Shown here piece by piece: positions 18,381 to 38,906 of a stretch of 64,000 bases of DNA (positions within the stretch are counted from its first letter, which is position 1; every line of letters starts with the position of its first letter). The notes beneath the pieces were generated by a model. The model did no database searches. It was not told the DNA's origin and was given only the letters and a program-made list of their open reading frames with translations. A program made the position numbers and the translations under genes. The stretch lies in the NCBI RefSeq assembly GCF_009914755.1, contig NC_060947.1; one strand, written 5' to 3'. The DNA is from the human T2T-CHM13v2.0 reference genome, Homo sapiens.

Positions 18381-18639
18381 CCTTCTTAACTATCCTTGGT
18401 AATTGGAATTGACTTTTTAAATGCTGGGTCAATTCTTCGAACACAAATTCCTGTCAAAATAATTACTGTTGTAGAATACAGTGCTATTTTTCCAAAATAT
18501 TCTCATCCCAATCCCATAACTCCTTGGAATATAAGAAATATAACAATATGTTCTTTAAAAAGTTTTATAAATCATAGATCCCACTGTTGCTTTACCTCCA
18601 TTTCTTCCTGCCTCTTTATAAGGAGTTCTAGGGATTTGA

Positions 18640-19090
18640 GGGCTTCTCAATGAAAAAGATAAAACCACAATAAGGTAGCACACACAAGCTTTATCTGGAC
18701 GACGCTTTGACAGGTTTGCATGTGGGGGAAGTCCCTCACAGCAAGAGACTATCCAGAGGCTTCCGTGCAGAAGGGTCATCCTTCAGAAAGTGAGGAAAGC
18801 AAGGAAACTTCTAGGGGAAAGAGGGATCAGAGAGGGGGGTTACATGTGTAGGTATTGTCACTTAGTCACAAGATGAAGAGTCTCTGGGTCAGAGATCTTC
18901 AGAGAGCAAAAACAGCTTGGGGCCTTTATAGCCCTGGAGTTTGTATCTTATCTATGGCTAGCAGATGCTGGGCATAGTTTCACTAGGTATAGAAAGCAGG
19001 AAAACTATAATTGGCTAAAAATTTGCTTATTTGGTCTATGCTTAAAAAATATTGAATGTACAAAAATTTGAGTTTGGTGCCCATGGGGTT
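18640..19090 (-). mobile_element. LTR-like element (family uncertain)
   Basis: About 450 bp with antisense polyA-signal-like gctttat and TATA-like cctttatag; resembles ERV1/ERVL solo LTRs. Confidence 0.4.
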
Positions 19091-19344
19091 TTGAAATAAT
19101 TAGACTCCGTCTGCTTTTCAAAAAATTAAAAATGAATAAATAAACCCTAGGGGCCCATATACAGAGGTCTATTTTTGGCTTATTTATGTAATACACTAAA
19201 TATATGCTACTACGAGTTGTTTTCTGTAAGGTTACAGTGTGTAGATGTATGGGTATTCTATCTGAGATGTTTCCACACTTGACTGTGCACTTTCTGTGAT
19301 CCAAATTCATGTCCCTTAGAAATCCATCTGGACATCACAATTTA

Positions 19345-19670
19345 TTAATTCACACATATACATTCATTCAGCATAAATATGCATATATATGTATATCTAT
19401 GCCAAGCACTTTTTACATGATGTGATAAGAGACCACAAAACTTAGTTCCTGCTCTCAGCGAATCCTGATGTTGACCAAAGTTTAACACACAAGCAAATAC
19501 ATTAAACAGTTAGATATCATCAAGTAATTCAAATGTAAAACAGGGTCACTGACAGGGATTCAAAGAATTGCCTAGCGTGCTACTTTAGAGGTATAATCAG
19601 AAATGGACTCTGAAAAGGTGCCACTTAAGGCTGAGAGAAAAAAGATAAAGAGAAGCAAGAGATGCAACAC
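19345..19670 (-). mobile_element. L2 3' fragment
   Basis: cattcattcagcataaat...ctatgccaagcact...gttcctgctctca. Confidence 0.6.
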
Positions 19671-21349
19671 TTTATGTGCTGAATCTATTCACTTATAAGG
19701 TTTTTAGTGTTGGTGCACTACATGAATTCAGGGCCAGTTAGGGTAACAGAGCCGTGGCTGTTGAAGGATGTGAATGTGAAGGTAGTGATACTTCGGAAGA
19801 ACGATCCAATGGATTCTAAGCCTAATGCCTTCATTGTCTTCAAGCCTGACTGGTTACGGTAAAGACCTATGGGAATGGTTTTCATGCACATGAGAAAAAT
19901 GGATTCAACCTCATGGCTGTGCCATGACTGCAGACCTGTGAGATATCTATAAAGCAGCATATCGTTGACATGATAGACCAGCCATTTTTTCCATGGCTGG
20001 AGATGTACATGAACTAATTTTTAATTGTGCTGATAGTCCAGCATATGTAGTACAAGGTGAACACAATGTAAGTGGTGCACACAGTGTAAGTGATGCTTGG
20101 AATACCCGGTCAACGATTACTTAGGCACCTTCACTGCAATCAGCCTGGGGTTCTATATAACAGGCTATTACAGGAGAGGTCATCAAATTCTCGGGAAGAA
20201 AGGCATTCCTAGTAGCTTGAGAAAACTGGTATTCCTTCAGGCTGTAAGGAAAAGATGAAGCATCACTATACTGAAATGATACACTAGTTATTCTTCTCAG
20301 GACTGGTGAGGTACATTACCTCAGGTGTGTTGTGGTCATTGTCCAGCCAGGGATGAACAATCTTACCAAAGGGCAAATGACTATGGGGATGATAAATCCA
20401 ATGCATTTTAGTGCAAGCAACTTCACTGCCATCAAGTTAGGAGGCAAAAGTGCGCAGTTACGAAAAAAGGCATCATGCATTTTGAGCAGAAAAGTTTTAG
20501 CCAGATGGTCTCAATGATCCTTTGGACTTCAGTGTAATACTTGAAACTGCACTGCCTTAAACTGATAGACCACCTATTCTTCCCAGGTCTGTACACAAAC
20601 TTAGGACCGGGTTTAGCATTATTCAGCACGTGTTATAGGATATGAACATACAAAGTGATACTTAGGAAGATTGATGTAATAGATTAAAAACTGGCATTTT
20701 CATTGCCATCAAGCCAGGCTGCATTCAATGGAGTGTTTAACAAGACAGATGTCAAACATCTGAACAGAAGGGATTCAGATCCATGGGCATAACATTCATT
20801 CTGACCTGTGAGGTACAACAGAAATAGCACCACAATGACATGATTTACTGTCCATTCTTCTCAGTGCTGGTGAAGTACATCCAGTGGAATGTAACGAGTC
20901 AGATGTCAGACATCTGAATAGAAGGGTGTCAGATTCATGGACATATCATTTTTATGACATGCGAGAAGAAACACAAATAGCACTACATTGACTTAACAGA
21001 CTGAACGTTCTTCCCATGGCTGGTGAAGTGCACGTCTAGCAGGTGCTGAAGGAGGTGAACACGGGCAGATGATGCTTGGGAAGAACAATCCAATGGATTA
21101 TAAACCAGGCACATTCATTGCCATAAAACTGTGCTATGTCCTGCAGGGCATTATGGGTGAACTCACTAAGCATTTTGAACAGAAGGGATACTGATTCATG
21201 TCCATGACATTGCTTCAAAACTGTGATGAACATCTGAAGCAGCAGTGTGATAACCTGGCAGGTTAGCCATTTTCCCTAGTGCTGATGTACTAAATTAACT
21301 TAGAGTTAGTTGTGTTCATTGTTCAACAGTTGCTGAAGAATATCTAAAG

Positions 21350-22995
21350 AGCTAAATTAATGCTTTACATGACCAATTCAGTTTTCCCAGAGCTGATTAA
21401 ATAAATAAACTCAAGGACATTTGTGGCCATTGGCCAACAGGAATGGAAGGCAGTAAACACAGGACAAGTGATGTTTTAGAAGAACAACTTTGGTGTGTGC
21501 TTCCTTGAGGTGGCCACCAGGGCCCACGAAATGAGTGGAATATAGGGGGTACTGCAGCAGTGTGGAGATGGGGCAAATCCAGACATGTTTCTTTTGCATC
21601 TTCTCAGGTACAAAATGCCAACCATAACTGTTTGTCAGCAAGAGAGACAGAGACTACAGATGACTATGGGGTAGATTCCCTGGTGGGAGGGCTCTGAACA
21701 TAGCTGGCAAGTGGGACTGATGCTGGTAGCCCTGGGAGCTACAAAGGAGTCTTGACAGGAAGAGACACTGACTCTAGAGTGGGCTTTGCTTACCCAGTGG
21801 AAGATTTAAATTCAGAGTGCCATTAACAAAACAAAACAAAAACAAACAAACAAACAGAACAAAAGATATTACATGGATTTGGACAGCTGATGGTCATTTC
21901 TTCAAACCAAGGAATACACTGTACATCCCATAATGTCCAATAATGTGCACAGAGATATCCTCCTCAGTGTAATAGTTTGATAGAGTAATAGAAGGGGGAG
22001 TTAAAACATTGGTTGTCTAAAACTGGGGGAAATGAAAGCATTCAGGGCTACCTTGTATGCCTTCAAGAGTGTGTGCTGACACTCAATATGAGTGGGACTA
22101 AAGGAGTGTCTTCACTAGATTTTCTGTTTTTCTGGTTCACCTGGGGAAGAGGAGGAGGGGAAGATGCTGGCATGACTGTGCAATTCTTGCCAAGGGAGGA
22201 GTACACTCGTATAACGAGTATAATTTTTTCTTTCTTCCCCAAATCACCTCAAATTTTTTTTTCTCCCCTACCTGATGCAGTGGTGCTAGGACTAGGGCTG
22301 CAATGACAAGTACTGGAAGCTGGGATGATTTCTAACCAAGAAACTGGGAAAATATTTTTAAACCTTCTGTCAGAATTTCTAAGGGCCTAAGGGGAGTGGA
22401 TTGTGCCTTCATCCCCATCTATCAAAACTGGGACTAAAAGTGAATGCAGCTATATTGCCTGATGGTAAAAATAGCTCACCAGCTCTGCACCTATGTAACT
22501 TTACCCTATTTGAATAGGAATGAACCGAGGAGGAAGTACTTACTAGGCTAGTATTGCTGCCTGCAATATAAACCAGCACACACGGTGGCAATTCTAGTGT
22601 TCCTTCCAAAGGTGAAAAAGTTTGAGAATTAATAGAGAGGAGAAATACTAGCTAAGGATAAAAAAAAAAGAATAAATGGTTTATAAATTGGGTAAATCTA
22701 ACATTACATTAACACCTTGAAAGGGACTCAGAGCAAGAGATGGCATTGTCTCTTAGCTCAATTATAACAGATGCCTGAATGGATGAAGCTGTTTGCCAAC
22801 ACCACTCCTGCTTTTGGAACCTGACAAGAGTGAAAGAAAGCTGGCAAACCTGAGTGGCCTTACCACGGGAGACAATAATACAATATGATGTACTGGACTA
22901 ATTATTAATGTTTAAATGGGATTCTAGTAATGTGGCAGTCTCTTTTGAGTTGCATGTCCTTTTGATATAAGGGATTCTCTGGGTTCAAAGACTGG
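21350..22995 (+). mobile_element. ERVL-class internal remnant (integrase and 3' region; HERV16/ERV3-16A3-like)
   Basis: From about 21770, DSRVGFAYPVEDLN...LHGFGQLMVISSNQGIH resembles the ERVL integrase core; no 5' LTR seen. Confidence 0.7.
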
Positions 22996-23435
22996 TGATA
23001 TTGGGAAATACGTTTTGGTCTTTGTCCCTGTTTCCTGGCATACAACTCCTAAAATCCTTAGAATCTCCAAAGTTTTGTCTTTTTGTATGCTAATGTTGAC
23101 TGGTAGCTTCAGGATGGGGACAGTTACTGGAAAGACAAAGGCATGATTAGAGGGTTGGGATTTTCAGCCCCATCCCCCCAACCTCTGAGAGCCCAAGGCA
23201 AATTTATCACCAATGGCCAATAGTTTAATTGATTATGCCTACATAACGAGGCCTCCATAAAAACCCAAGAGACAAGTTCAGAGAGCTTCCAGATAGCTGA
23301 ACATGTGGAGGTTCCTTGGGGGTGGTGCTCCCAGGAAGTGCATGGAAACTCTGTGCCTCTTCCCCCATTCCAAGCCCTATGCATCTCTTCAACTGTATCC
23401 TTTGTAATATGCTTTACAGTAAACCGGTAAACATT
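22996..23435 (+). mobile_element. MER21-type LTR, 3' truncated
   Basis: tgatattg...ttcctggcatacaactcctaaaatccttagaatctcc; ttccagatagctgaacatgtggagg. Confidence 0.75.
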
Positions 23436-23444
23436 TTTTAAAAA

Positions 23445-23600
23445 GGCCAGGCCAAATGACTCACACCTGTATTCCCAGCACTTTGGGAGGCCAAGGCAGG
23501 AGATTTGCTTGAGCCCTTGAGTTTGAGGCTGCAGTGAGCTATGATCATGTCACTGCACTTCTACGTGGGCAATAGAGTGATAAAACACGAAAAAAATAAA
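23445..23600 (+). mobile_element. Alu monomer (FLAM-like)
   Basis: About 135-bp Alu monomer with A-rich tail. Confidence 0.85.
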
Positions 23601-24343
23601 TCAATAACCATCAATTCAATCTGAGCTAGGCACTTTCATTGCCTTCAAGCTTGTCAGCTTAGGGTGGAAACTTAGAAGACAGGATGTTAAGTGCTTTGAG
23701 AAAAAAGAATTCAGCCTCAATACAATTCCTACAGGACTATGACGAACTCTGAAGCAGCACTGCATTGATATGACACATGAATCACTGTTCCCAAAGCAGA
23801 TGAAGGACAAAAACAAAAGACCAGTTCTAGCGACTGTCCAACAGACCATGTAGGGGATGACAAAAAGGTGAGTGATGCTCGGGTGAGTAATTCAATAGAT
23901 TCTCTTTAAGGCCTCATCATATCCATGAAGCTGGGAGGTATACAACAGGGGGTTACAAGAAAAGTGACCAGGCACACTCAGCAGAAACGATTCAGATTCA
24001 TGGGCAGAATGTGACTTTGGGACTTTGAGGAATACCAGAAGCAAACATAAATTGAAATGAAAGACTGTACAGTCTTCTGAGGAATAGTGTATTACATGAA
24101 TTCACAGCTGATTACAGCCTGTGTGAAACAGCAATAAAAAGAATTGAATACAGGGCAAGTGAGGCTTAAGGAGAGTTTACAGAGCAATGTAATCCAAGCA
24201 ACATTATTGCCAATGGCCATACTTCAATCGGAAAATTGTTACAGGAGAGTTCTTCATGTGCATTTATGAGATGAGAGCTGATTCACCATCATGAATCTTG
24301 AATTTTTTTTTTTTTTGGTCTCTGCAAAAAACCAGAAGAACCT

Positions 24344-24742
24344 TGATATGGTGTAGGATGATGTTTGTCCCCTCCAAATCTCATGTTGAAATGTGATCTC
24401 CAATGTTTGAGGTAAGGCCTGGTGGTAAGTGCTAGAGTTGTAGGGGTGGATCCCTCATGAATGCCTTGGTGCTGAAATGAGTGAGTTCTCACCCTATTAG
24501 TTACCAAGAGATTATAAAGAGCCTGGAACTTCCTCTATCTCGCTCCCTCTCCTGCCATGTGACATGCCTGCTCCCCGTTGCTCTCTGCCGAGTAAAAGCT
24601 TCCTGAGGTCCTTGCCTAACGCAGATGCTGGTGCCATGATTCCTGTACAGTCTACAGAACCATGAACCAAAATAAAGCTCTTAACTTTATAAATCACCCA
24701 GCCGCCGGTATCCTTTCTAGCAGCACAAAATGGACTACTACA
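24344..24742 (+). mobile_element. MST (MSTB-like) MaLR solo LTR inserted in an NME unit
   Basis: TG...CA ends, tttgtcccctccaaatctcatgttgaaatgtgat, aataaa; TSD aacct/aagct. Confidence 0.9.
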
Positions 24743-25589
24743 AAGCTCTACCATAACATGATACACTGCCATTATTCCAAAGATTCGTAAAGAACATTAA
24801 CTACCCATTGAATGTGGGCATGGTCAAGTAGCAGGTGATGTATTTGGACACAGTGTTAGTAAAGCCTGGGGAGACTTTTTGAATGAATTCAAACCCAGGC
24901 ACATTCCTTTCAATTAAATGGCATTGCATCCAGTAGAAGACAATAGAGCAAGTATCCAGTGCTGAAACAGAAAGGATAGATTCACTGACATAATAACATC
25001 CTTAGAGACAGTAAGGAAAATCTGGAGCAGCCCTACTCTGAAATGAAACATTGCACAATTTTCCAAGGACTGGTGAGTGACTGATAATTTAGGGCTAGAT
25101 TCTAAGAACAGCAATTTAAATGTCTTAAATGTGAATGAAATGCAATCTGGCCTTAAAGAAGAGGTCATCAAGCTTCCTGAGGACAGCAACAGGCGTCTCA
25201 TGAGCACATACTATTTTCTCAAGCACATGAAAACCCTTAAATAAGCAATTCGTTGACTTAAAAAGAAGCCGTTAACCACTACCTAGAAATAAATAATAAA
25301 TAACTTTGGTGAAAAGTCTAGCATCAATTTGAATAGGTGATCACAGGAGAATAATTTTTTCATAAAAAAAATAATCTGCACAAAGACACTGACATCTTCC
25401 TAATGCACACCTATGGAGCTCCCACTTTTTTGTTTATTCTTGGCCTATAGAAAATACAGGCCAGTGGTGAAAATCAGTTTAGAAAAGAATGAACATAGGG
25501 CTAAAAATCTGGAGTGAACACAGCTGAACTCTAAGCCAGAAAACATAATAGGCATGACACTAAACTTACTGAACAGGTTTTACAAAAGA

Positions 25590-28500
25590 AATTCAAGCAT
25601 CATATAAGAGGACAACCCAGAGGAGTTTGTAAAGCACTCTTAATACACAATCAGCCCCAAGATTATTGTACCCACGCCAAAAAATTTCCAAGAAGGTCAA
25701 CTGCAAAGATTCCACAGAAGGTATTCTGAGTGACTTCCAGTACACTGGGCAGGCGATGGGGAAAGACCTTAGACAATATGAACCACCCTTACAAACACAG
25801 TAGGATCCTCCTGTGCTTAACATGCTTTCTAATGCACGGGATAGCCCTAAAACAGCCAGTGTGCATTGAATACAAGACATGTTTTTGTTCAGGACCTTGA
25901 GAGTAATTATAAAGACTGACTGCAGTGCCTTACCCCTGAGGAACTGAAGACTTTGTGGACACAGAGCACGCTCCCAGTGCCAGGAACCAAAGAACCTTTC
26001 AGTGACCAACACGATGCCTTGGGAGGCAAGATGGTCCTGTCGCACAAGAGGAGTAATTTGAACATGCTGAAAACCCCCAACAGGAAGCTAGGCCTGGGAC
26101 CCTCAGCATGGCGTGCTCACTGCCATCAAAACAAGCATCATACACAAGGGAAGCACAGAGTTCAAAAGGCATTACCCAAAGGGGCAATCAGCCTCGCAGA
26201 TATGCCATTTTAATCTGGTCATCATGGAATGACCTTTCACTCACCTGCTGTAAATGGGGGAACATCCTGGTAAGTGGGAGTTCACATCTTACACACCTTC
26301 CACCAGAATGACTGTAAGCATTCCTGACAGGGCTGCACGCATGCCCAGCAATTGAGAAGACTGTCAATCCCGAAGTTTCCAAAAGGAAACCAACAAAAAA
26401 TAAGGCACTCCAAGTGGCACCCGGTAAAAAGACAGATAATAGGGCCCAATCTGAGAATTCACCAACTGACTTTCGAAATAGAGTGGGATCCTCCCAGACT
26501 TACCATTCTGTAATGCACTGGACAGCCCCCAAAAGCAAATATGGATTGAAGGGAAGACACCAGTGGTCCCAAATCTGGACAATAATTGTCACAAGTGCCC
26601 AGGGGGTGCGGCACTCCTGAGGAACTGAAGGCTGAGTGAACGGGGAGTGAGTTTCTAAGGCCAGACACAGAGCAACCTTTCAGTGCCCATTTTGAGACCC
26701 CGTGAGGGAAGAAGGTCTTGCCTCCCACGAGGAACAGTCTGCACTTACACAGCACTCCTGAGAGGAGGCTCTGCATCTGCATGAAATCCCTGCATGGCAC
26801 GTTCACTGAAATTGAAAGACGCATCATACAAGAGGGCAACCCAGAGGAGTTTTTAAAGCATTCTTACACCAGGACAATCAGCCCTGAGATTGCTGTATCC
26901 ATTCACCACAACTTGCTGGAACAGCAATCCCATGGTTTGCAAAAGAGGCATTCCAGGTGACTGTCAAGCACCATGGGTGGGCAGTGGCAACAGACCAGAC
27001 AGGTTATCAACCACTGTTAGAAGCAGGGTAGGATCCTCCTTTGCTTAACATGCTTTCTAGTGCAGAGGACACCCCTAAGAAAGCAAATGGTCATTGAACA
27101 GAAGCCACCTGTTATTCAGGACCTTGAAAGCAATCATAATGAGTGACTGGGGTACACCACTCATGACAAGCCAGAGCCTGTGTGGACATAGAGCGAGTTT
27201 CTAATGCCAGGAACCAGGAAACATTTGAGTGACCCGACACCTGATCCTAAGAGTCAAGACAGTATAGTCTCATGTGACAAATAATTAAAATGTACTGAAA
27301 GCTCCCAAAAGGAAGCTATGCCTGGGGCCATCAGCATAATGTGTTCATTGCCATCAAATGAGCATCACACAAAAGGACAACCCAGAGATGTGTTGAAAGC
27401 ATTATTGAAACAGTACAATCAGCCTTGAGATTTCTGTACCCATCCTCCCAAATTTACAGGAACCCCCAACTCCAGATTCCCAAAAAGGCATTCTGGGTGA
27501 CTGCCAGCACCATAGGCAGTCAATGAGGACAGACCCGGGTGGCCATTGGCCACTGTTATTAGCAGAGAACAACCCTCCTGTGGGTAACCTGCTTCCTAAT
27601 GCACTGGATCACCCTAAAGAAGCCAATGTGCATTGAATTGAAGCCACCTGTTGTGCAGTTCCTTGAAATTAACTGTAGCAAGGGCCCCGGGACTCATCAC
27701 TGCTGAGACACTGAAGGTTGAGGCAAGAGGATCTTGCCTCACATGACAAGTTGTCTGAACGTACAGAACACTCCTGAGAGAAAACTCTGTGTGAAATCCC
27801 TGCGTGGCAAGTTCATTTCCATCAAAACAAGCATCATGCAAAAGGGCAATCCAGAGCAGTTTTGAAGGCACTTTTAAAATGGGACAATCAGCCCTGAGAT
27901 GGCTGGATCCACGGCCAACAATTTCCAGGAAGGCCAGTCGCAAGGATTCCACAGAAGGCATTCAAAGTGATTTCCAGCACCCTGGGCAGGCAACGGGGAC
28001 AGATCCGAGAGGTCATCAAACCCCACTACTAACACAGTAGGATCCTCCTGTGGGTAACGTGCTTTCTTTCTAATGCACTGGATATCCTTTAAAAGAGCCA
28101 ATGTCCATTGAAAACAAGCCATGTTTTTGTTCAGGACCTTGAGAGTGATTTTAGGGTGAGGTTCCATGATGCAATGGTGAGCACTCTGGACTCTGACAGT
28201 AATTTTCATGAGCGACTGGGGTGCCTCACTCCCTGAGAAACTGAAGACTTTATGTACGCAGAGCGAGATTCCAATGCCAGGAACCAAGGAACCTTTCAGT
28301 GACCAACACGATGCCCCGGGAGGCAAGATGGTCTTGTCTGACAAGAGGAATAATTTGAACATGCCGAAAACCCCCAACAGGAAGTTAGGCTTGGGACCCT
28401 CAGCATGGCGTGCTCACTGCCATCAAAACAAGCATCAAACACAAGAGAAACATAGAGGAGTTCAAAAGGCATTGCTCAAAGGAGCAATCAGCCTTGCAGA

Positions 28501-29320
28501 TATGCCATTTTAATCTGGTCATCATGGAATGACCCTTTTACTCCCCTATTGTAAATGGGGGAACAACCTGGTAAGTGAGAGTTCACATATTATATGCCTT
28601 CCACCAGAATGACTGTAAGCACCCCTGAGAGGACTTACACATGCCCAGTGATTGAGAAGACTGCAAATCCCAAAGTTTCCAAAAGGAAAACAACAACAAA
28701 AAGGCACCCCAAGTGGCACCAGTAAAAAGACAGGCAATGCGGACCAACCCAAGAAGTCACCAACCAACTTTCGAAACAGAGTGAGATTCTCCCAGGCTTA
28801 CCATTCTGTAATGTACTGGATAGCCCTCCAAAAGCAAATGTGCATTGAAGAGAAGCCACCGGTGGTACCAAATCTGGACAATAATTGTCACAAGTGCCCT
28901 GGAGTGCAGCACTCCTAAGGAACTGAAGGCTGAGTGAACGGGGAGTGAGTTTCTAAGGCCAGGCACAGAGCAACCTTTCAGTGCCCATTTTGAAACCCTG
29001 CGAGGGATGAGGGTCTTGCCTCCCATGAGGAACAGTCTGCACTTACACAGCACTCCCGAGAGGAAGCTCTGTATCTGCATGAAATCCCTGCACAGCACAT
29101 TCACTGAAATCGAAAGAAGCATCATACAAGAGGGCAACCCAGAGGAGTTTTTAAAGCATTCTTATACCAGGATAATCAGCCCTGAGATTGCTGTATCCAT
29201 TCACCACAACTTGCTGGAACAGCAATCCCATGGTTTTCTGAAGAGGCATTCCGGGTGACTGTCCAGGACCACTGGCAGGCAATGTGGGCAGACTGGAAAG
29301 GTTACCAACCTCGTTTACAC
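25590..29320 (+). repeat. Higher-order repeat: ~470-690 bp monomers with a ~2.3 kb duplication period
   Basis: Monomer starts at 26116, 26802, 27344, 27812, 28413, 29100; 26116->28413 = 2297 and 26802->29100 = 2298; near-identical ORFs 26718-26960 and 29007-29258. Confidence 0.92.
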
Positions 29321-30150
29321 TGAATTATAGAGAAGTTGGTTTTGCTCACCCTAAGGTTTTTTTCAAGAAATGTGTCTGCCGTGACAGACCCATCAGTAAT
29401 TGCACGTGTGCTGTGATTTAGTATTTGGCCCTAACTTTTTACTTCTCTCATTCATGCCTTGGTTACATTCTTGAGACATTATCAGGACCAAATGAAACAA
29501 TCATTTTGAGGTTATTTTAGAAATGATCAAGCAGATTCCTGAACCTCTTCAGTGCCATAAATTTACCAAAAGCAGCACTACTGTGAAATGCCAGATCGGC
29601 CATTCTTCATAGGTCTGGTGAAGTACATGACTCCATGGTGAGTTGTTCCTATTGTCAAACTGGCATTGAAATCTTTCAATACAGAGTGAGTGAATCTGGG
29701 AAAGAACAATGCAATGTAGTTTACTCCTGGCACCATCATTACCATCAAGCTGGGAGGTCTGAAGCAGGCATTAGCAATGAGGTCGCCAAAAAGTGCAGAA
29801 TCTGAATCCTTTCTGCACTTTCGCTCCCTGTTCACTCAACCTTCAGTTCCTCAGGAGTGCTGCACTTTTGGTGCAGAAAGGATTCAGATTCTTGCCCATG
29901 TTGTTCCTTCTGACCTGTGAGGAAAATATGAATCCTCTTTACACTGACCTTATAGACTGCTCTTTCTTCTCAGTGCTGGTAAGTACATGAATGTAGACCA
30001 GTTTTGGCCATTGACCAGCAGGTGGTGAAGGTGGTGAAAACAAAGGGTTGCAAAGAGTACCGTTATGGGTTGAATTTTCCTTTGTGTTCATCGCCACCAA
30101 TAAAAGAAACGGTAAAATGTTTAAGTAAATAACTAAATAATAATTATATT

Positions 30151-30575
30151 TGTCTAGCGTGTCCATGTGAAGAGACCACCAAGAGGCTTTGTGTGAGCAA
30201 CAAGGCTGTTTATTCACCTGGGTGCAAATGGGCTGAGTCAGAGAAAGGAGTCAGCAAAGGGAGTTAGGGATGGGGCAGTTTTATAGGACTGGGGTAAGCA
30301 GTGGAAAGTTACAGTTAAAGTGGGTTTTTCTATTGCAGGCAGGGGTGGGGGTCACAAGGTGGATGGTGGGGAGATCAGAAGACTCATTGTCCAGAAGAAG
30401 AATGTCACGAGGTCAATTGATCAATTGGGACAGGGCAGGAACAAGTCATAATGGAATGTTGTAAGGTTGGTCAATCAGTTAAGACAGGAGCTGGCTGTTT
30501 CCCTTCTTTTGTACTTTTTGGTTGCCTCAGGCCATCTAGACGTATACGTGCAGGCTTGGGCTCAGAGGCCTGACA
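30151..30575 (-). mobile_element. HERV-H 3' LTR (LTR7 family, LTR7C-like)
   Basis: tgtcaggcctctgagcccaagcc start on the minus strand; about 91% identical to the 5' LTR by manual count. Confidence 0.93.
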
Positions 30576-38477: not shown

Positions 38478-38906
38478 TGTCATGAGCGTCTGTGTGAAGA
38501 GACCACCAACAGGCTTTGGGTGAGCAACAAGGCTGTTTATTCACCTGGGTGCAAGTGGGCTGAGTCCAAGAAAGCAGTCAGCGAAGGGAGTTAGGGATGG
38601 GGCAGTTTTATAGGACTGGGATAAGCAGTGGAAAGTTATAGTTAAAGTGGGTTTTTCTCTTGTGGGCAGGGGCGGGGGTCACAAGGTACATGGTGGGGAG
38701 ATCATAAGTCTCATTGTCCAGAAGAAGAATGTCACAAGCTCGATCGATCGATCAGCTGGGACACAGCAGGAACAAATCATAATGGAAAGTTGTAAGGTTG
38801 GTCAATCAGTTAAGACAGGAGCTAGCTGTTTCCCTTCTTTTGTACTTTTCGGTTGCCTCAGGCCATCTGGATGTATACATGCAGGCTTGGGCTCAGAGGC
38901 CTGACA
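38478..38906 (-). mobile_element. HERV-H 5' LTR (LTR7C-like), promoter facing leftward
   Basis: TG...CA ends, TATA (cctataaaa) and AATAAA on the minus strand. Confidence 0.93.

What the first reader, a model, noticed from the sequence alone, without database searches (positions are those of the whole stretch)
19800..21130. Units are fused at KPGT|FIAIK through a GCACC microhomology, deleting the catalytic half-site
Seen: junctions aagcctaatgcc|ttcattgtc (19830), ttaggcacc|ttcactgca (20130), aaactggcatt|ttcattgcc (20699), aaaccaggcaca|ttcattgcc (21114); also gagctaggcact|ttcattgcc (23635), cccaggcaca|ttcctttca (24904) and cctggcacc|atcattacc (29735). Known (recalled NME2 CDS): GCACC occurs at both ...CGCACCTTCATC (Thr7) and ...GGCACCATTCGT (Thr103). 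Joining them gives a 288-nt, 96-codon unit that preserves frame and lacks Arg105, Asn115 and phospho-His118. The junction is not at an NME2 exon boundary, which argues against canonical circRNA back-splicing. Inference: one microhomology-mediated circularisation or duplication seeded the array (rolling circle or unequal crossover). Any ancestral product would be a kinase-dead NDK-fold repeat. No NME2 start, C-terminus or 3' UTR is evident at either end.
Basis: partly seen in the sequence, partly recalled or inferred. Interest (0 to 1): 0.75.

Follow-up and report, generated by a model that had tools for sequence, protein, structure and literature searches.

The report
Decayed tandem array of NME2 cDNA fragment
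An old, broken, non-coding tandem repeat on human Xp21.3 is built from one 288-base piece of spliced NME2 (nucleoside diphosphate kinase) message joined head to tail at a 5-base microhomology; it is a tidy fossil of how a tandem repeat is born, not a working gene.

Summary
From about 19576 to 30045 on the + strand there are about 11 unit-equivalents, in 15 well-aligned segments, of an intronless NME2-type cDNA piece. Each unit is CDS nt 22-309 (Phe8 to Thr103, 288 nt). All nine clear junctions show the same fusion...KPGT|FIAIK....

GCACC occurs in the chr17 NME2 CDS only at nt 17-21 and 305-309, which are 288 nt apart. The junction is not at an exon boundary. No IHGSD, C-terminal or 3'UTR sequence was found.

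The idea of a kinase-dead repeat protein is not supported:
- There are 36 stops in 1015 codons.
- Only 1 of 29 indels is a multiple of 3.
- Substitutions are spread evenly over codon positions.
- The common ancestor of the surviving units had already lost conserved residues such as Trp78 and Glu79.

The array is unique in the genome, roughly 100-200 million years old (a rough inference), and broken up by later transposon insertions.

Best reading: an NME2 retrocopy, then one microhomology-mediated tandem duplication, then DNA-level expansion and neutral decay. It is a new member of a known kind, of modest interest.

The parts
19576..19700 (+). Weak leftmost remnant: the 3' end of one unit, a possible junction near 19618 with a 9-nt deletion, and the decayed 5' part of the next unit.
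   Evidence: Local alignment to the consensus dimer (positions 243-288 then 1-79): score 32, z 3.0; the tile gives z 4.2. Weak.
19701..21486 (+). Block A of the NDK-derived array. Unit starts at 19830, 20130, 20422, 20699 and 21114. Two out-of-register partial duplications: 20699-20880 with 20879-21113, and 21114-21382 with 21378-21486.
   Evidence: nhmmer hits at E 1e-21 to 1e-60. Junctions. The internal duplicate is 76% identical. The adjacent halves are sisters in the tree.
21487..23605 (.). Later insertions that split one unit at about unit position 263. They are an interspersed repeat of about 1.95 kb, then an Alu-monomer-like piece with an A-rich tail.
   Evidence: 7005 first-look candidates, of which 40 were scored; copies are 69-95% identical, and the long ones 72-78%. 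Sequence. The unit resumes at about 23608-23634.
23606..25259 (+). Block B of the array. Unit starts at 23635, 23916 and 24904. Decayed or unassigned stretch at 24216-24743. Weak unit pieces at 24236-24348 and 25143-25259.
25597..29319 (+). A second, locus-specific tandem repeat of about 8 units of 500-540 bp. It lies between blocks B and C and may be a far-diverged derivative of the NDK units (unresolved).
   Evidence: Self-BLAST and HMM tiling. No copy elsewhere in the genome. Its consensus against the NDK-unit consensus scores 44, reached by 0 of 1000 dinucleotide shuffles. nhmmer, tblastn and blastn are not significant, and only 2 of 6 single copies are significant.
29565..30045 (+). Block C. 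It holds the 3' part of one unit, the junction at 29735, and a last unit (29735-29790 plus 29866-30045) interrupted by about 75 nt. That interruption includes a 45-bp inverted piece of the second repeat.
   Evidence: The inverted piece at 29821-29866 is shown.

Best explanation
This is a dead relic: a degenerate tandem array derived from a spliced NME2-type cDNA.

Most likely sequence of events:
1. A processed NME2 retrocopy landed in what is now Xp21.3 (inferred).
2. One microhomology-mediated tandem duplication occurred between the two GCACC pentamers, at CDS nt 17-21 and 305-309. It created the non-colinear junction Thr103|Phe8 and a 288-nt unit. The junction and microhomology are shown; a DNA-level mechanism is inferred.
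3. Unequal exchange or replication slippage multiplied and turned over the units while the sequence was already decaying. That the surviving units share a decayed ancestor is shown.
4. The array then froze and the units diverged independently, by about 0.3 substitutions per site each.
5. Transposons inserted into it and its ends were lost.

It encodes nothing today, and there is no sign that it ever did.
For: - **Spliced cDNA origin.** The units are colinear with the CDS across both exon-exon joins (nt 126|127 and 228|229), with no inserted columns in any unit.
- **NME2 type.** The consensus matches NME2 at 221 of 288 positions and NME1 at 192 of 288. At the 54 sites where NME1 and NME2 differ, it agrees with NME2 at 38, with NME1 at 9 and with neither at 7.
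- **One junction type.** 9 of 9 clear junctions are the same.
- **Microhomology.** GCACC occurs only at CDS nt 17 and 305, as an exact 5-nt run. NME1 shares only ACC at these two sites. A random model gives 4^-5, about 0.1%, for an arm of 5 nt or more; this follows the model used in PMC13167724 (passages read).
- **Known route.** Microhomology-mediated tandem duplication as a way to tandem repeats is described in PMC13167724 and in bioRxiv 10.64898/2026.02.28.708716 (abstracts and outlines read).
- **Neutral decay.**
  - 36 stops in 1015 codons read in the NME2 register.
  - 1 of 29 indels is a multiple of 3.
  - Units differ from the consensus at 0.302, 0.269 and 0.303 of codon positions 1, 2 and 3.
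  - CpG count falls from 16 to 2.3 per unit, and GC from 0.59 to 0.41.
  - The longest stop-free + strand frame is 80 aa.
- **Decayed founder.**
  - Consensus and NME2 differ at 23/17/27 sites by codon position, against 6/3/45 for NME1 versus NME2.
  - 20 strongly shared non-CpG changes fall 8/5/7 by codon position and include Trp78 and Glu79.
  - The tree stem is 0.139.
- **DNA-level growth.** Out-of-register partial duplicates lie next to each other and are sisters in the tree (S4a/S4b support 0.955; S5a/S5b 0.825).
- **Array predates the inserted repeat.** That repeat sits inside a unit which continues on its far side.
- **Single locus.** A genome-wide search with block A gives 6 matches: itself, block C, and colinear NME-type loci on chr12 (two matches), chr9 and chr17.
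Against: - No colinear 5' end, C-terminal part, 3'UTR, poly(A) tail or target-site duplication of a founding retrocopy is detectable. The retrocopy stage is therefore inferred, not seen. An RNA-level origin predicts exactly this absence.
- The microhomology is read from today's NME2, not from the ancestral message.
- The NME2-versus-NME1 assignment could partly reflect slower evolution of NME2 (branch 0.022 against 0.20).
- The age is rough. G/C sites changed twice as often as A/T sites (0.477 against 0.244), which inflates simple distances.
- I could not examine any other mammal.
Confidence: 0.7

Rival explanations
1. RNA-level origin. The multimer was made in one step by reverse transcription. 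This could be rolling-circle copying of a 288-nt circular NME2 RNA fragment. It could also be repeated template jumps of the reverse transcriptase from nt 22 back to nt 309 at the GCACC microhomology. The product then integrated, and DNA-level turnover followed.
For: - There are no 5' or 3' mRNA ends at either side of the array.
- The units are intronless.
- A microhomology at the jump site is also what template switching would leave (general knowledge).
- Dong et al. 2016 (PMC4897178, whole text read) show that non-colinear retro-pseudogenes exist. They note that such junctions can also arise when reverse transcription passes through structured open-ended RNAs.
Against: - The junction is inside exons, not at a back-splice site.
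- The ancestor of all surviving units was already decayed, with 13 of 20 strongly shared changes at codon positions 1-2. A single-step multimer of a functional message does not explain the present array without later DNA-level amplification.
- Folding CDS nt 1-342 of the intronless copy gives no special structure bringing nt 22 and 309 together (z -1.23).
- No dispersed copies with this junction turned up in the genome.
Confidence: 0.15
2. The array was once a selected gene or exon set encoding a repeat protein made of truncated, kinase-dead NDK modules, and has since died.
For: - The unit is 96 codons long and frame-preserving.
- The two stops in the majority consensus fall at CpG-containing Arg codons (18 and 89). 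There the units show TGG/CAG and TGA/CAA, meaning independent CpG decay, so the ancestor was probably stop-free at these two codons.
Against: - Frame preservation is expected about half the time for 5-mer pairs in this CDS: 92 of 169.
- A stop-free ancestor is what any fresh copy of a CDS looks like.
- Shared founder changes hit conserved residues and are spread evenly over codon positions.
- Indels are not in threes: 1 of 29.
- No start, promoter-proximal exon or terminus was found.
- The unit lacks the strand that carries His118, so the fold would be incomplete (general knowledge of the NDK fold, not tested).
Confidence: 0.03
3. The array is a functional non-coding element, for example a structural or regulatory repeat within the intron of lncRNA LOC105373150, kept for reasons unrelated to NDK coding.
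For: It has survived for a long time as a recognisable array, and a second locus-specific tandem repeat lies next to it.
Against: - The units have drifted to a mean pairwise identity of 56% over 96 pairs, with no homogenisation.
- Insertions and partial deletions are tolerated.
- No conservation or expression data could be examined.
Confidence: 0.07

Closest known systems
Processed pseudogenes of NME2, such as the intronless copy at chr12:120.27 Mb (L001, NME2P1 by recall of the name) and the copy at chr9:84.4 Mb (L017)
   Same: They are intronless copies of the NME2 message and lie outside the chr17 parent locus.
   Different: Those copies are colinear and single, and they include the C-terminal half and the 3'UTR. 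The chr12 copy keeps an open frame. The X array holds only CDS nt 22-309, circularly joined and repeated more than 10 times.
Tandem repeats seeded by microhomology-mediated tandem duplication (Wei et al., PMC13167724; bioRxiv 10.64898/2026.02.28.708716)
   Same: A single-copy segment flanked by short identical arms becomes the unit. The unit length equals the arm spacing (288 nt), and one arm remains per junction.
   Different: - The examples quoted in the passages I read are mostly short units, with under 50 bp making up a large share.
- Here the unit is 288 nt.
- The progenitor is a retro-copied coding sequence.
- The event is ancient, so the single-copy progenitor state is not observable.
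circRNA-derived pseudogenes (Dong et al. 2016, PMC4897178)
   Same: A non-colinear junction in an intronless gene copy, with no canonical poly(A) end.
   Different: Their defining junction joins whole exons in back-splice order. Here the junction lies 25 nt inside the first coding exon and 32 nt before the end of the third coding exon.
Retrogene-bearing macrosatellites such as D4Z4 with DUX4 (recalled, not checked here)
   Same: A tandem array whose unit contains retro-copied coding sequence.
   Different: Those units are kilobases long, homogenised, copy-number variable, and carry a whole open frame. This array has 288-nt partial-CDS units that have not been homogenised for a very long time.

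Membership tests
NDK / NME (Pfam PF00334) derived sequence | Significant match to the NDK profile | tested here: met
   48.3 bits, E 1.2e-12, cut-off 27, on a stop-masked frame; nhmmer E as low as 1.5e-18 against the NME2P1 CDS.
NDK / NME (Pfam PF00334) derived sequence | Catalytic His118 segment (NIIHGSD) and Arg105/Asn115 present | tested here: not met
   Units end at Thr103 and restart at Phe8. No credible match to residues 104-152 anywhere in the window.
NDK / NME (Pfam PF00334) derived sequence | Intact open reading frame | tested here: not met
   36 stops in 1015 codons. 28 of 29 indels are not multiples of 3. The longest + strand open stretch is 80 aa.
Processed pseudogene (retrocopy) | Introns absent across parental exon-exon joins | tested here: met
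   No inserted columns at CDS 126|127 or 228|229 in any of the 15 segments.
Processed pseudogene (retrocopy) | Colinear with the mRNA, with 3' end, poly(A) tail and target-site duplication | tested here: not met
   Circularly permuted junction. No 3' part found. The array ends are truncated mid-unit.
circRNA-derived pseudogene | Non-colinear junction that coincides with back-splice exon boundaries | tested here: not met
   The junction is CDS 309|22. Exon limits are -3, 126, 228 and 341. The definition is taken from PMC4897178.
Tandem repeat seeded by microhomology-mediated tandem duplication | Unit bounded in the progenitor by identical short arms whose spacing equals the unit length | tested here: met
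   GCACC at CDS nt 17-21 and 305-309 only, 288 nt apart. The consensus unit is 288 nt. The progenitor is represented by today's NME2, not by the ancestral copy.
Tandem repeat seeded by microhomology-mediated tandem duplication | All copies share one junction | tested here: met
   9 of 9 clear junctions.
Tandem repeat seeded by microhomology-mediated tandem duplication | Single-copy (1x) state documented at the same locus | not testable with these tools
   This needs orthologous loci from other mammals, and none are held here.

The most novel reading that the evidence does not exclude
The array may be a fossil of a one-step RNA-level event. In that reading a reverse transcriptase cycled on a 288-nt NME2 RNA segment, either a non-canonical circle or repeated microhomology-guided template jumps, and inserted a ready-made multimer. 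DNA-level turnover then reshaped it, and it may also have given rise to the neighbouring 540-bp repeat. This would be a natural mammalian case of a tandem repeat born from rolling-circle-like reverse transcription of an mRNA fragment.
Probability: 0.12. Interest if true: 0.6.

Novelty: new member of a known kind. Interest (0 to 1): 0.3.

Why it matters
This is a clean, datable example of how a tandem repeat can start from unique sequence. The progenitor, the NME2 message, is known base for base, so both the breakpoints and the 5-nt microhomology can be read directly. That is rarely possible for old repeats.

It also shows that about 5 kb of NME2-derived sequence, spread over a roughly 10-kb interval unique to Xp21.3, carries no row in the RefSeq table supplied with the finding. 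It is only partly soft-masked.

It has no evident bearing on NME2 function or disease. I found no description of it in three literature searches. Pseudogene and repeat tracks outside these tools could still list it.

Tried and rejected
- **Tandem Repeats Finder on the whole window.** No array of period about 288 was found; the units are too diverged.
- **Direct translation for Pfam.** Repeated with stops read as X.
- **Search for the NME2 C-terminal part and 3'UTR.**
  - tblastn hits to residues 104-152 are all chance level, E 3 or more.
  - A Smith-Waterman scan of 850 tiles gives a best z of 4.2, scattered.
  - Nothing lies beyond the LTR-flanked insertion.
  - An apparent tblastn extension to residue 134 at 29570-29824 turned out to be the next unit misread.
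- **Relation of the 540-bp repeat to the NDK units.**
  - One test is positive: 0 of 1000 shuffles reach the observed score.
  - The others are negative: nhmmer gives no hit; the NME2 unit itself is matched or beaten by 481 of 1000 shuffles; tblastn, tblastx and blastn give E of 0.07 or more; 4 of 6 single copies are not significant.
  - Left open.
- **Parent gene for the long minus-strand open frames of that repeat.** Only its own copies were found in the genome, and there is no Pfam family.
- **RNA fold of CDS nt 1-342 to look for a stem joining nt 22 and 309.** Not more stable than shuffles, z -1.23. Uninformative.
Not done.
- **Family name and age of the inserted repeat.** Not obtained, because no repeat library is on hand. 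I built no consensus of the inserted repeats.

Full report
**What is there**

The window is human chrX:26846001-26910000 (T2T-CHM13), according to the hub note.

Several searches show that the region derives from NDK coding sequence:
- Translating with stops masked, Pfam NDK (PF00334) matches frame 2 of 19502-22501 at E 1.2e-12 (48.3 bits, cut-off 27). Frame 3 gives 19.3 bits and frame 1 nothing.
- In frame, 21063-21290 reads ...LGKNNPMDYKPGTFIAIK....
- For a reference I used sequences from the same genome. These were the intronless chr12 copy (L001) and the chr17 NME2 and NME1 exons (L016, L015).
- tblastn with the chr12-derived protein gives 23 HSPs at E up to 10. Sixteen lie between 19710 and 29981, all on the + strand. 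The other 7 are chance level, E 3 or more.
- nhmmer with the coding sequence gives 15 hits, all on the + strand, between 19707 and 30043.
- An iterated unit profile gives 18 hits, 17 on the + strand.

**Anatomy**

The array lies in three blocks: 19701-21486, about 23606-25259, and 29565-30045. There is a weak remnant at 19576-19700.

Clear unit starts are at 19830, 20130, 20422, 20699, 21114, 23635, 23916, 24904 and 29735. All nine show the same fusion: the end of the Thr103 codon is followed by the Phe8 codon.

Complete units measure 300, 292, 277 and 281 nt. The consensus is 288 nt in NME2 coordinates, with no consensus indel.

For the counts I used 15 segments, 3101 aligned bases or about 10.8 unit-equivalents. 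I left out three weak or misaligned pieces: 23590-23634, 24236-24348 and 25143-25259.

Two adjacent out-of-register partial duplications exist: 20699-20880 with 20879-21113, and 21114-21382 with 21378-21486. Each pair is sister in the tree.

Block A ends inside a unit at about position 263. That unit resumes at about 23608, after an interspersed repeat of about 1.95 kb (7005 first-look candidates; long copies 72-78% identical) and an Alu-monomer-like piece. The array therefore predates those insertions.

The right end stops at unit position 238 (30045). A 14-nt match to the unit start at 30087 is in phase but not significant. From about 30140 an LTR-flanked element begins. Nothing NDK-like follows it.

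**Source and junction**

The NME2 first coding exon starts at CDS nt -3, and exons end at nt 126, 228 and 341. The units cross both internal exon joins without any inserted columns, so the source was spliced RNA.

The junction (CDS 309|22) lies inside exons. A back-spliced circle of whole exons, the defining feature in Dong et al. 2016 (PMC4897178, whole text read), therefore does not fit.

GCACC occurs in the NME2 CDS only at nt 17 and 305, as an exact 5-nt run. NME1 shares only ACC at the two sites.

The consensus matches NME2 at 221 of 288 positions and NME1 at 192 of 288. At the 54 diagnostic sites it follows NME2 at 38, NME1 at 9 and neither at 7. NME2 also has a much shorter branch than NME1 (0.022 against 0.20). 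"NME2-type" is therefore safe, while "after the NME1/NME2 split" is only likely.

That split is placed before or around the amniote radiation by Desvignes et al. 2009 (PMC2777172, passages read). This is compatible either way.

**Was it ever coding?**

The evidence says no, or at least gives no sign of it:
- In the NME2 register there are 36 stops in 1015 codons, and each of the five full-length units has 2-5.
- Of 29 indels, only 1 is a multiple of 3. One 18-bp internal duplication in the first full unit is split by the aligner into 2 + 11, so 2 of about 28 would be the generous count.
- Units differ from their consensus at 0.302, 0.269 and 0.303 of codon positions 1, 2 and 3.
- The consensus differs from NME2 at 23/17/27 sites by codon position (uniform, p 0.32). 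NME1 versus NME2 gives 6/3/45.
- Twenty non-CpG sites meet three conditions: NME1 equals NME2, at least 60% of units share a different base, and they include Trp78 and Glu79. They fall 8/5/7 by codon position.

The last common ancestor of the surviving units was thus already a decayed pseudogene.

The majority consensus has two stops. Both are at CpG-bearing Arg codons where the units show TGG/CAG or TGA/CAA, which is independent CpG decay. This only says that the seed came from a coding sequence.

Frame preservation is uninformative: 92 of the 169 identical 5-mer pairs in the CDS are in frame.

**Age (rough)**

- Mean unit-to-unit identity is 0.561 over 96 pairs (K2P about 0.70).
- Unit-to-NME2 identity ranges from 0.50 to 0.71.
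- The tree is star-like, with terminal branches of 0.15-0.41 and a stem of 0.139.
- G/C sites changed at 0.477 and A/T sites at 0.244. GC fell from 0.59 to 0.41 and CpG from 16 to 2.3 per unit.

A GC-rich cDNA decaying in AT-rich DNA inflates simple distances. Counting NME2-specific changes (9 to 16 of 54) against a split about 310 million years ago gives roughly 100-185 million years.

I therefore say only [quoted passage not shown]. This is inference. The rates and dates are from general knowledge, and no other mammal could be examined.

**Mechanism**

The shown facts are:
- a spliced-cDNA origin;
- one junction type at a 5-nt microhomology whose spacing equals the unit;
- later out-of-register local duplications;
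- a decayed common ancestor;
- neutral decay;
- later insertions.

The simplest chain is retrocopy, then microhomology-mediated tandem duplication, then unequal exchange, then freezing and decay. This route to tandem repeats is described by Wei et al. (PMC13167724 and bioRxiv 10.64898/2026.02.28.708716; abstracts, outlines and passages read). Their random model gives about 0.1% for an arm of 5 nt or more.

The main rival is an RNA-level origin of the first multimer. The missing mRNA ends fit it. It is not needed, however, and it cannot by itself explain the decayed founder. An RNA fold gave no support.

**Uniqueness and prior description**

A genome-wide search with block A returns 6 matches: itself, block C, and colinear NME-type loci on chr12 (two matches), chr9 and chr17. 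The PF00334 genome scan lists 25 matches, none with this junction.

The three literature searches each returned a single, unrelated paper. The search listed none that describes the array, judging by titles and abstracts. The supplied RefSeq table has no row for it. Tracks outside these tools (GENCODE pseudogenes, retrogene tracks, Dfam) were not available and may list fragments.

**Verdict**

This is an ordinary kind of object (a pseudogene-derived, microhomology-seeded tandem repeat) in an unusually legible form.

Noticed in passing
window 25597-29319: A second tandem repeat of about 8 units of 500-540 bp. It has a higher-order duplication: 25594-27012 against 27828-29310 at 82% identity. No copy exists elsewhere in the genome, and there is no Pfam match in six frames. 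Its consensus aligns weakly and colinearly with the NDK-unit consensus through the junction (0 of 1000 shuffles reach the score), but nhmmer, tblastn and blastn do not confirm this.
   Followed up: partly
window 25593-26087, 26459-26863, 27874-28413, 28757-29161 (minus strand): Unusually long stop-free frames (164, 134, 179 and 134 aa) on the minus strand of the second repeat. The 179-aa frame finds only its own sister copies in the genome.
   Followed up: partly
window 29821-29866: A 45-bp piece of the second repeat, inverted and 91% identical to 26606-26650. It sits inside the last NDK unit, between 29790 and 29866, which suggests a small rearrangement between the two arrays.
   Followed up: no
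window 30166-30575 and 38493-38906: Two direct copies 92% identical to each other, belonging to an interspersed family (2995 first-look candidates). They look like the LTR pair of an endogenous-retrovirus-like insertion of about 8.7 kb, starting about 95-120 bp after the array's right end. I located it only and studied it no further.
   Followed up: no
window 21487-23605: A composite insertion inside one NDK unit. It consists of an old interspersed repeat of about 1.95 kb without terminal direct repeats, then an Alu-monomer-like segment with an A-rich tail at about 23446-23605. The family names are not known.
   Followed up: partly
window 20056-20096: An 18-bp unit repeated 2.3 times inside the first full NDK unit, which is a small secondary tandem duplication. 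It explains that unit's 300-nt length.
   Followed up: no
L001 (G000:C12:120269442-120269843): The intronless NME2 copy on chr12 keeps an open frame across the whole NDK domain: profile positions 1-134, no stops, open frame of 177 aa. It is 92-97% identical to the NME2 exons.
   Followed up: no
window 18616-19194: An old interspersed repeat (154 first-look candidates, 67-72% identical) lies upstream of the array. The stretch 19195-19575 between it and the array has no strong match elsewhere.
   Followed up: no
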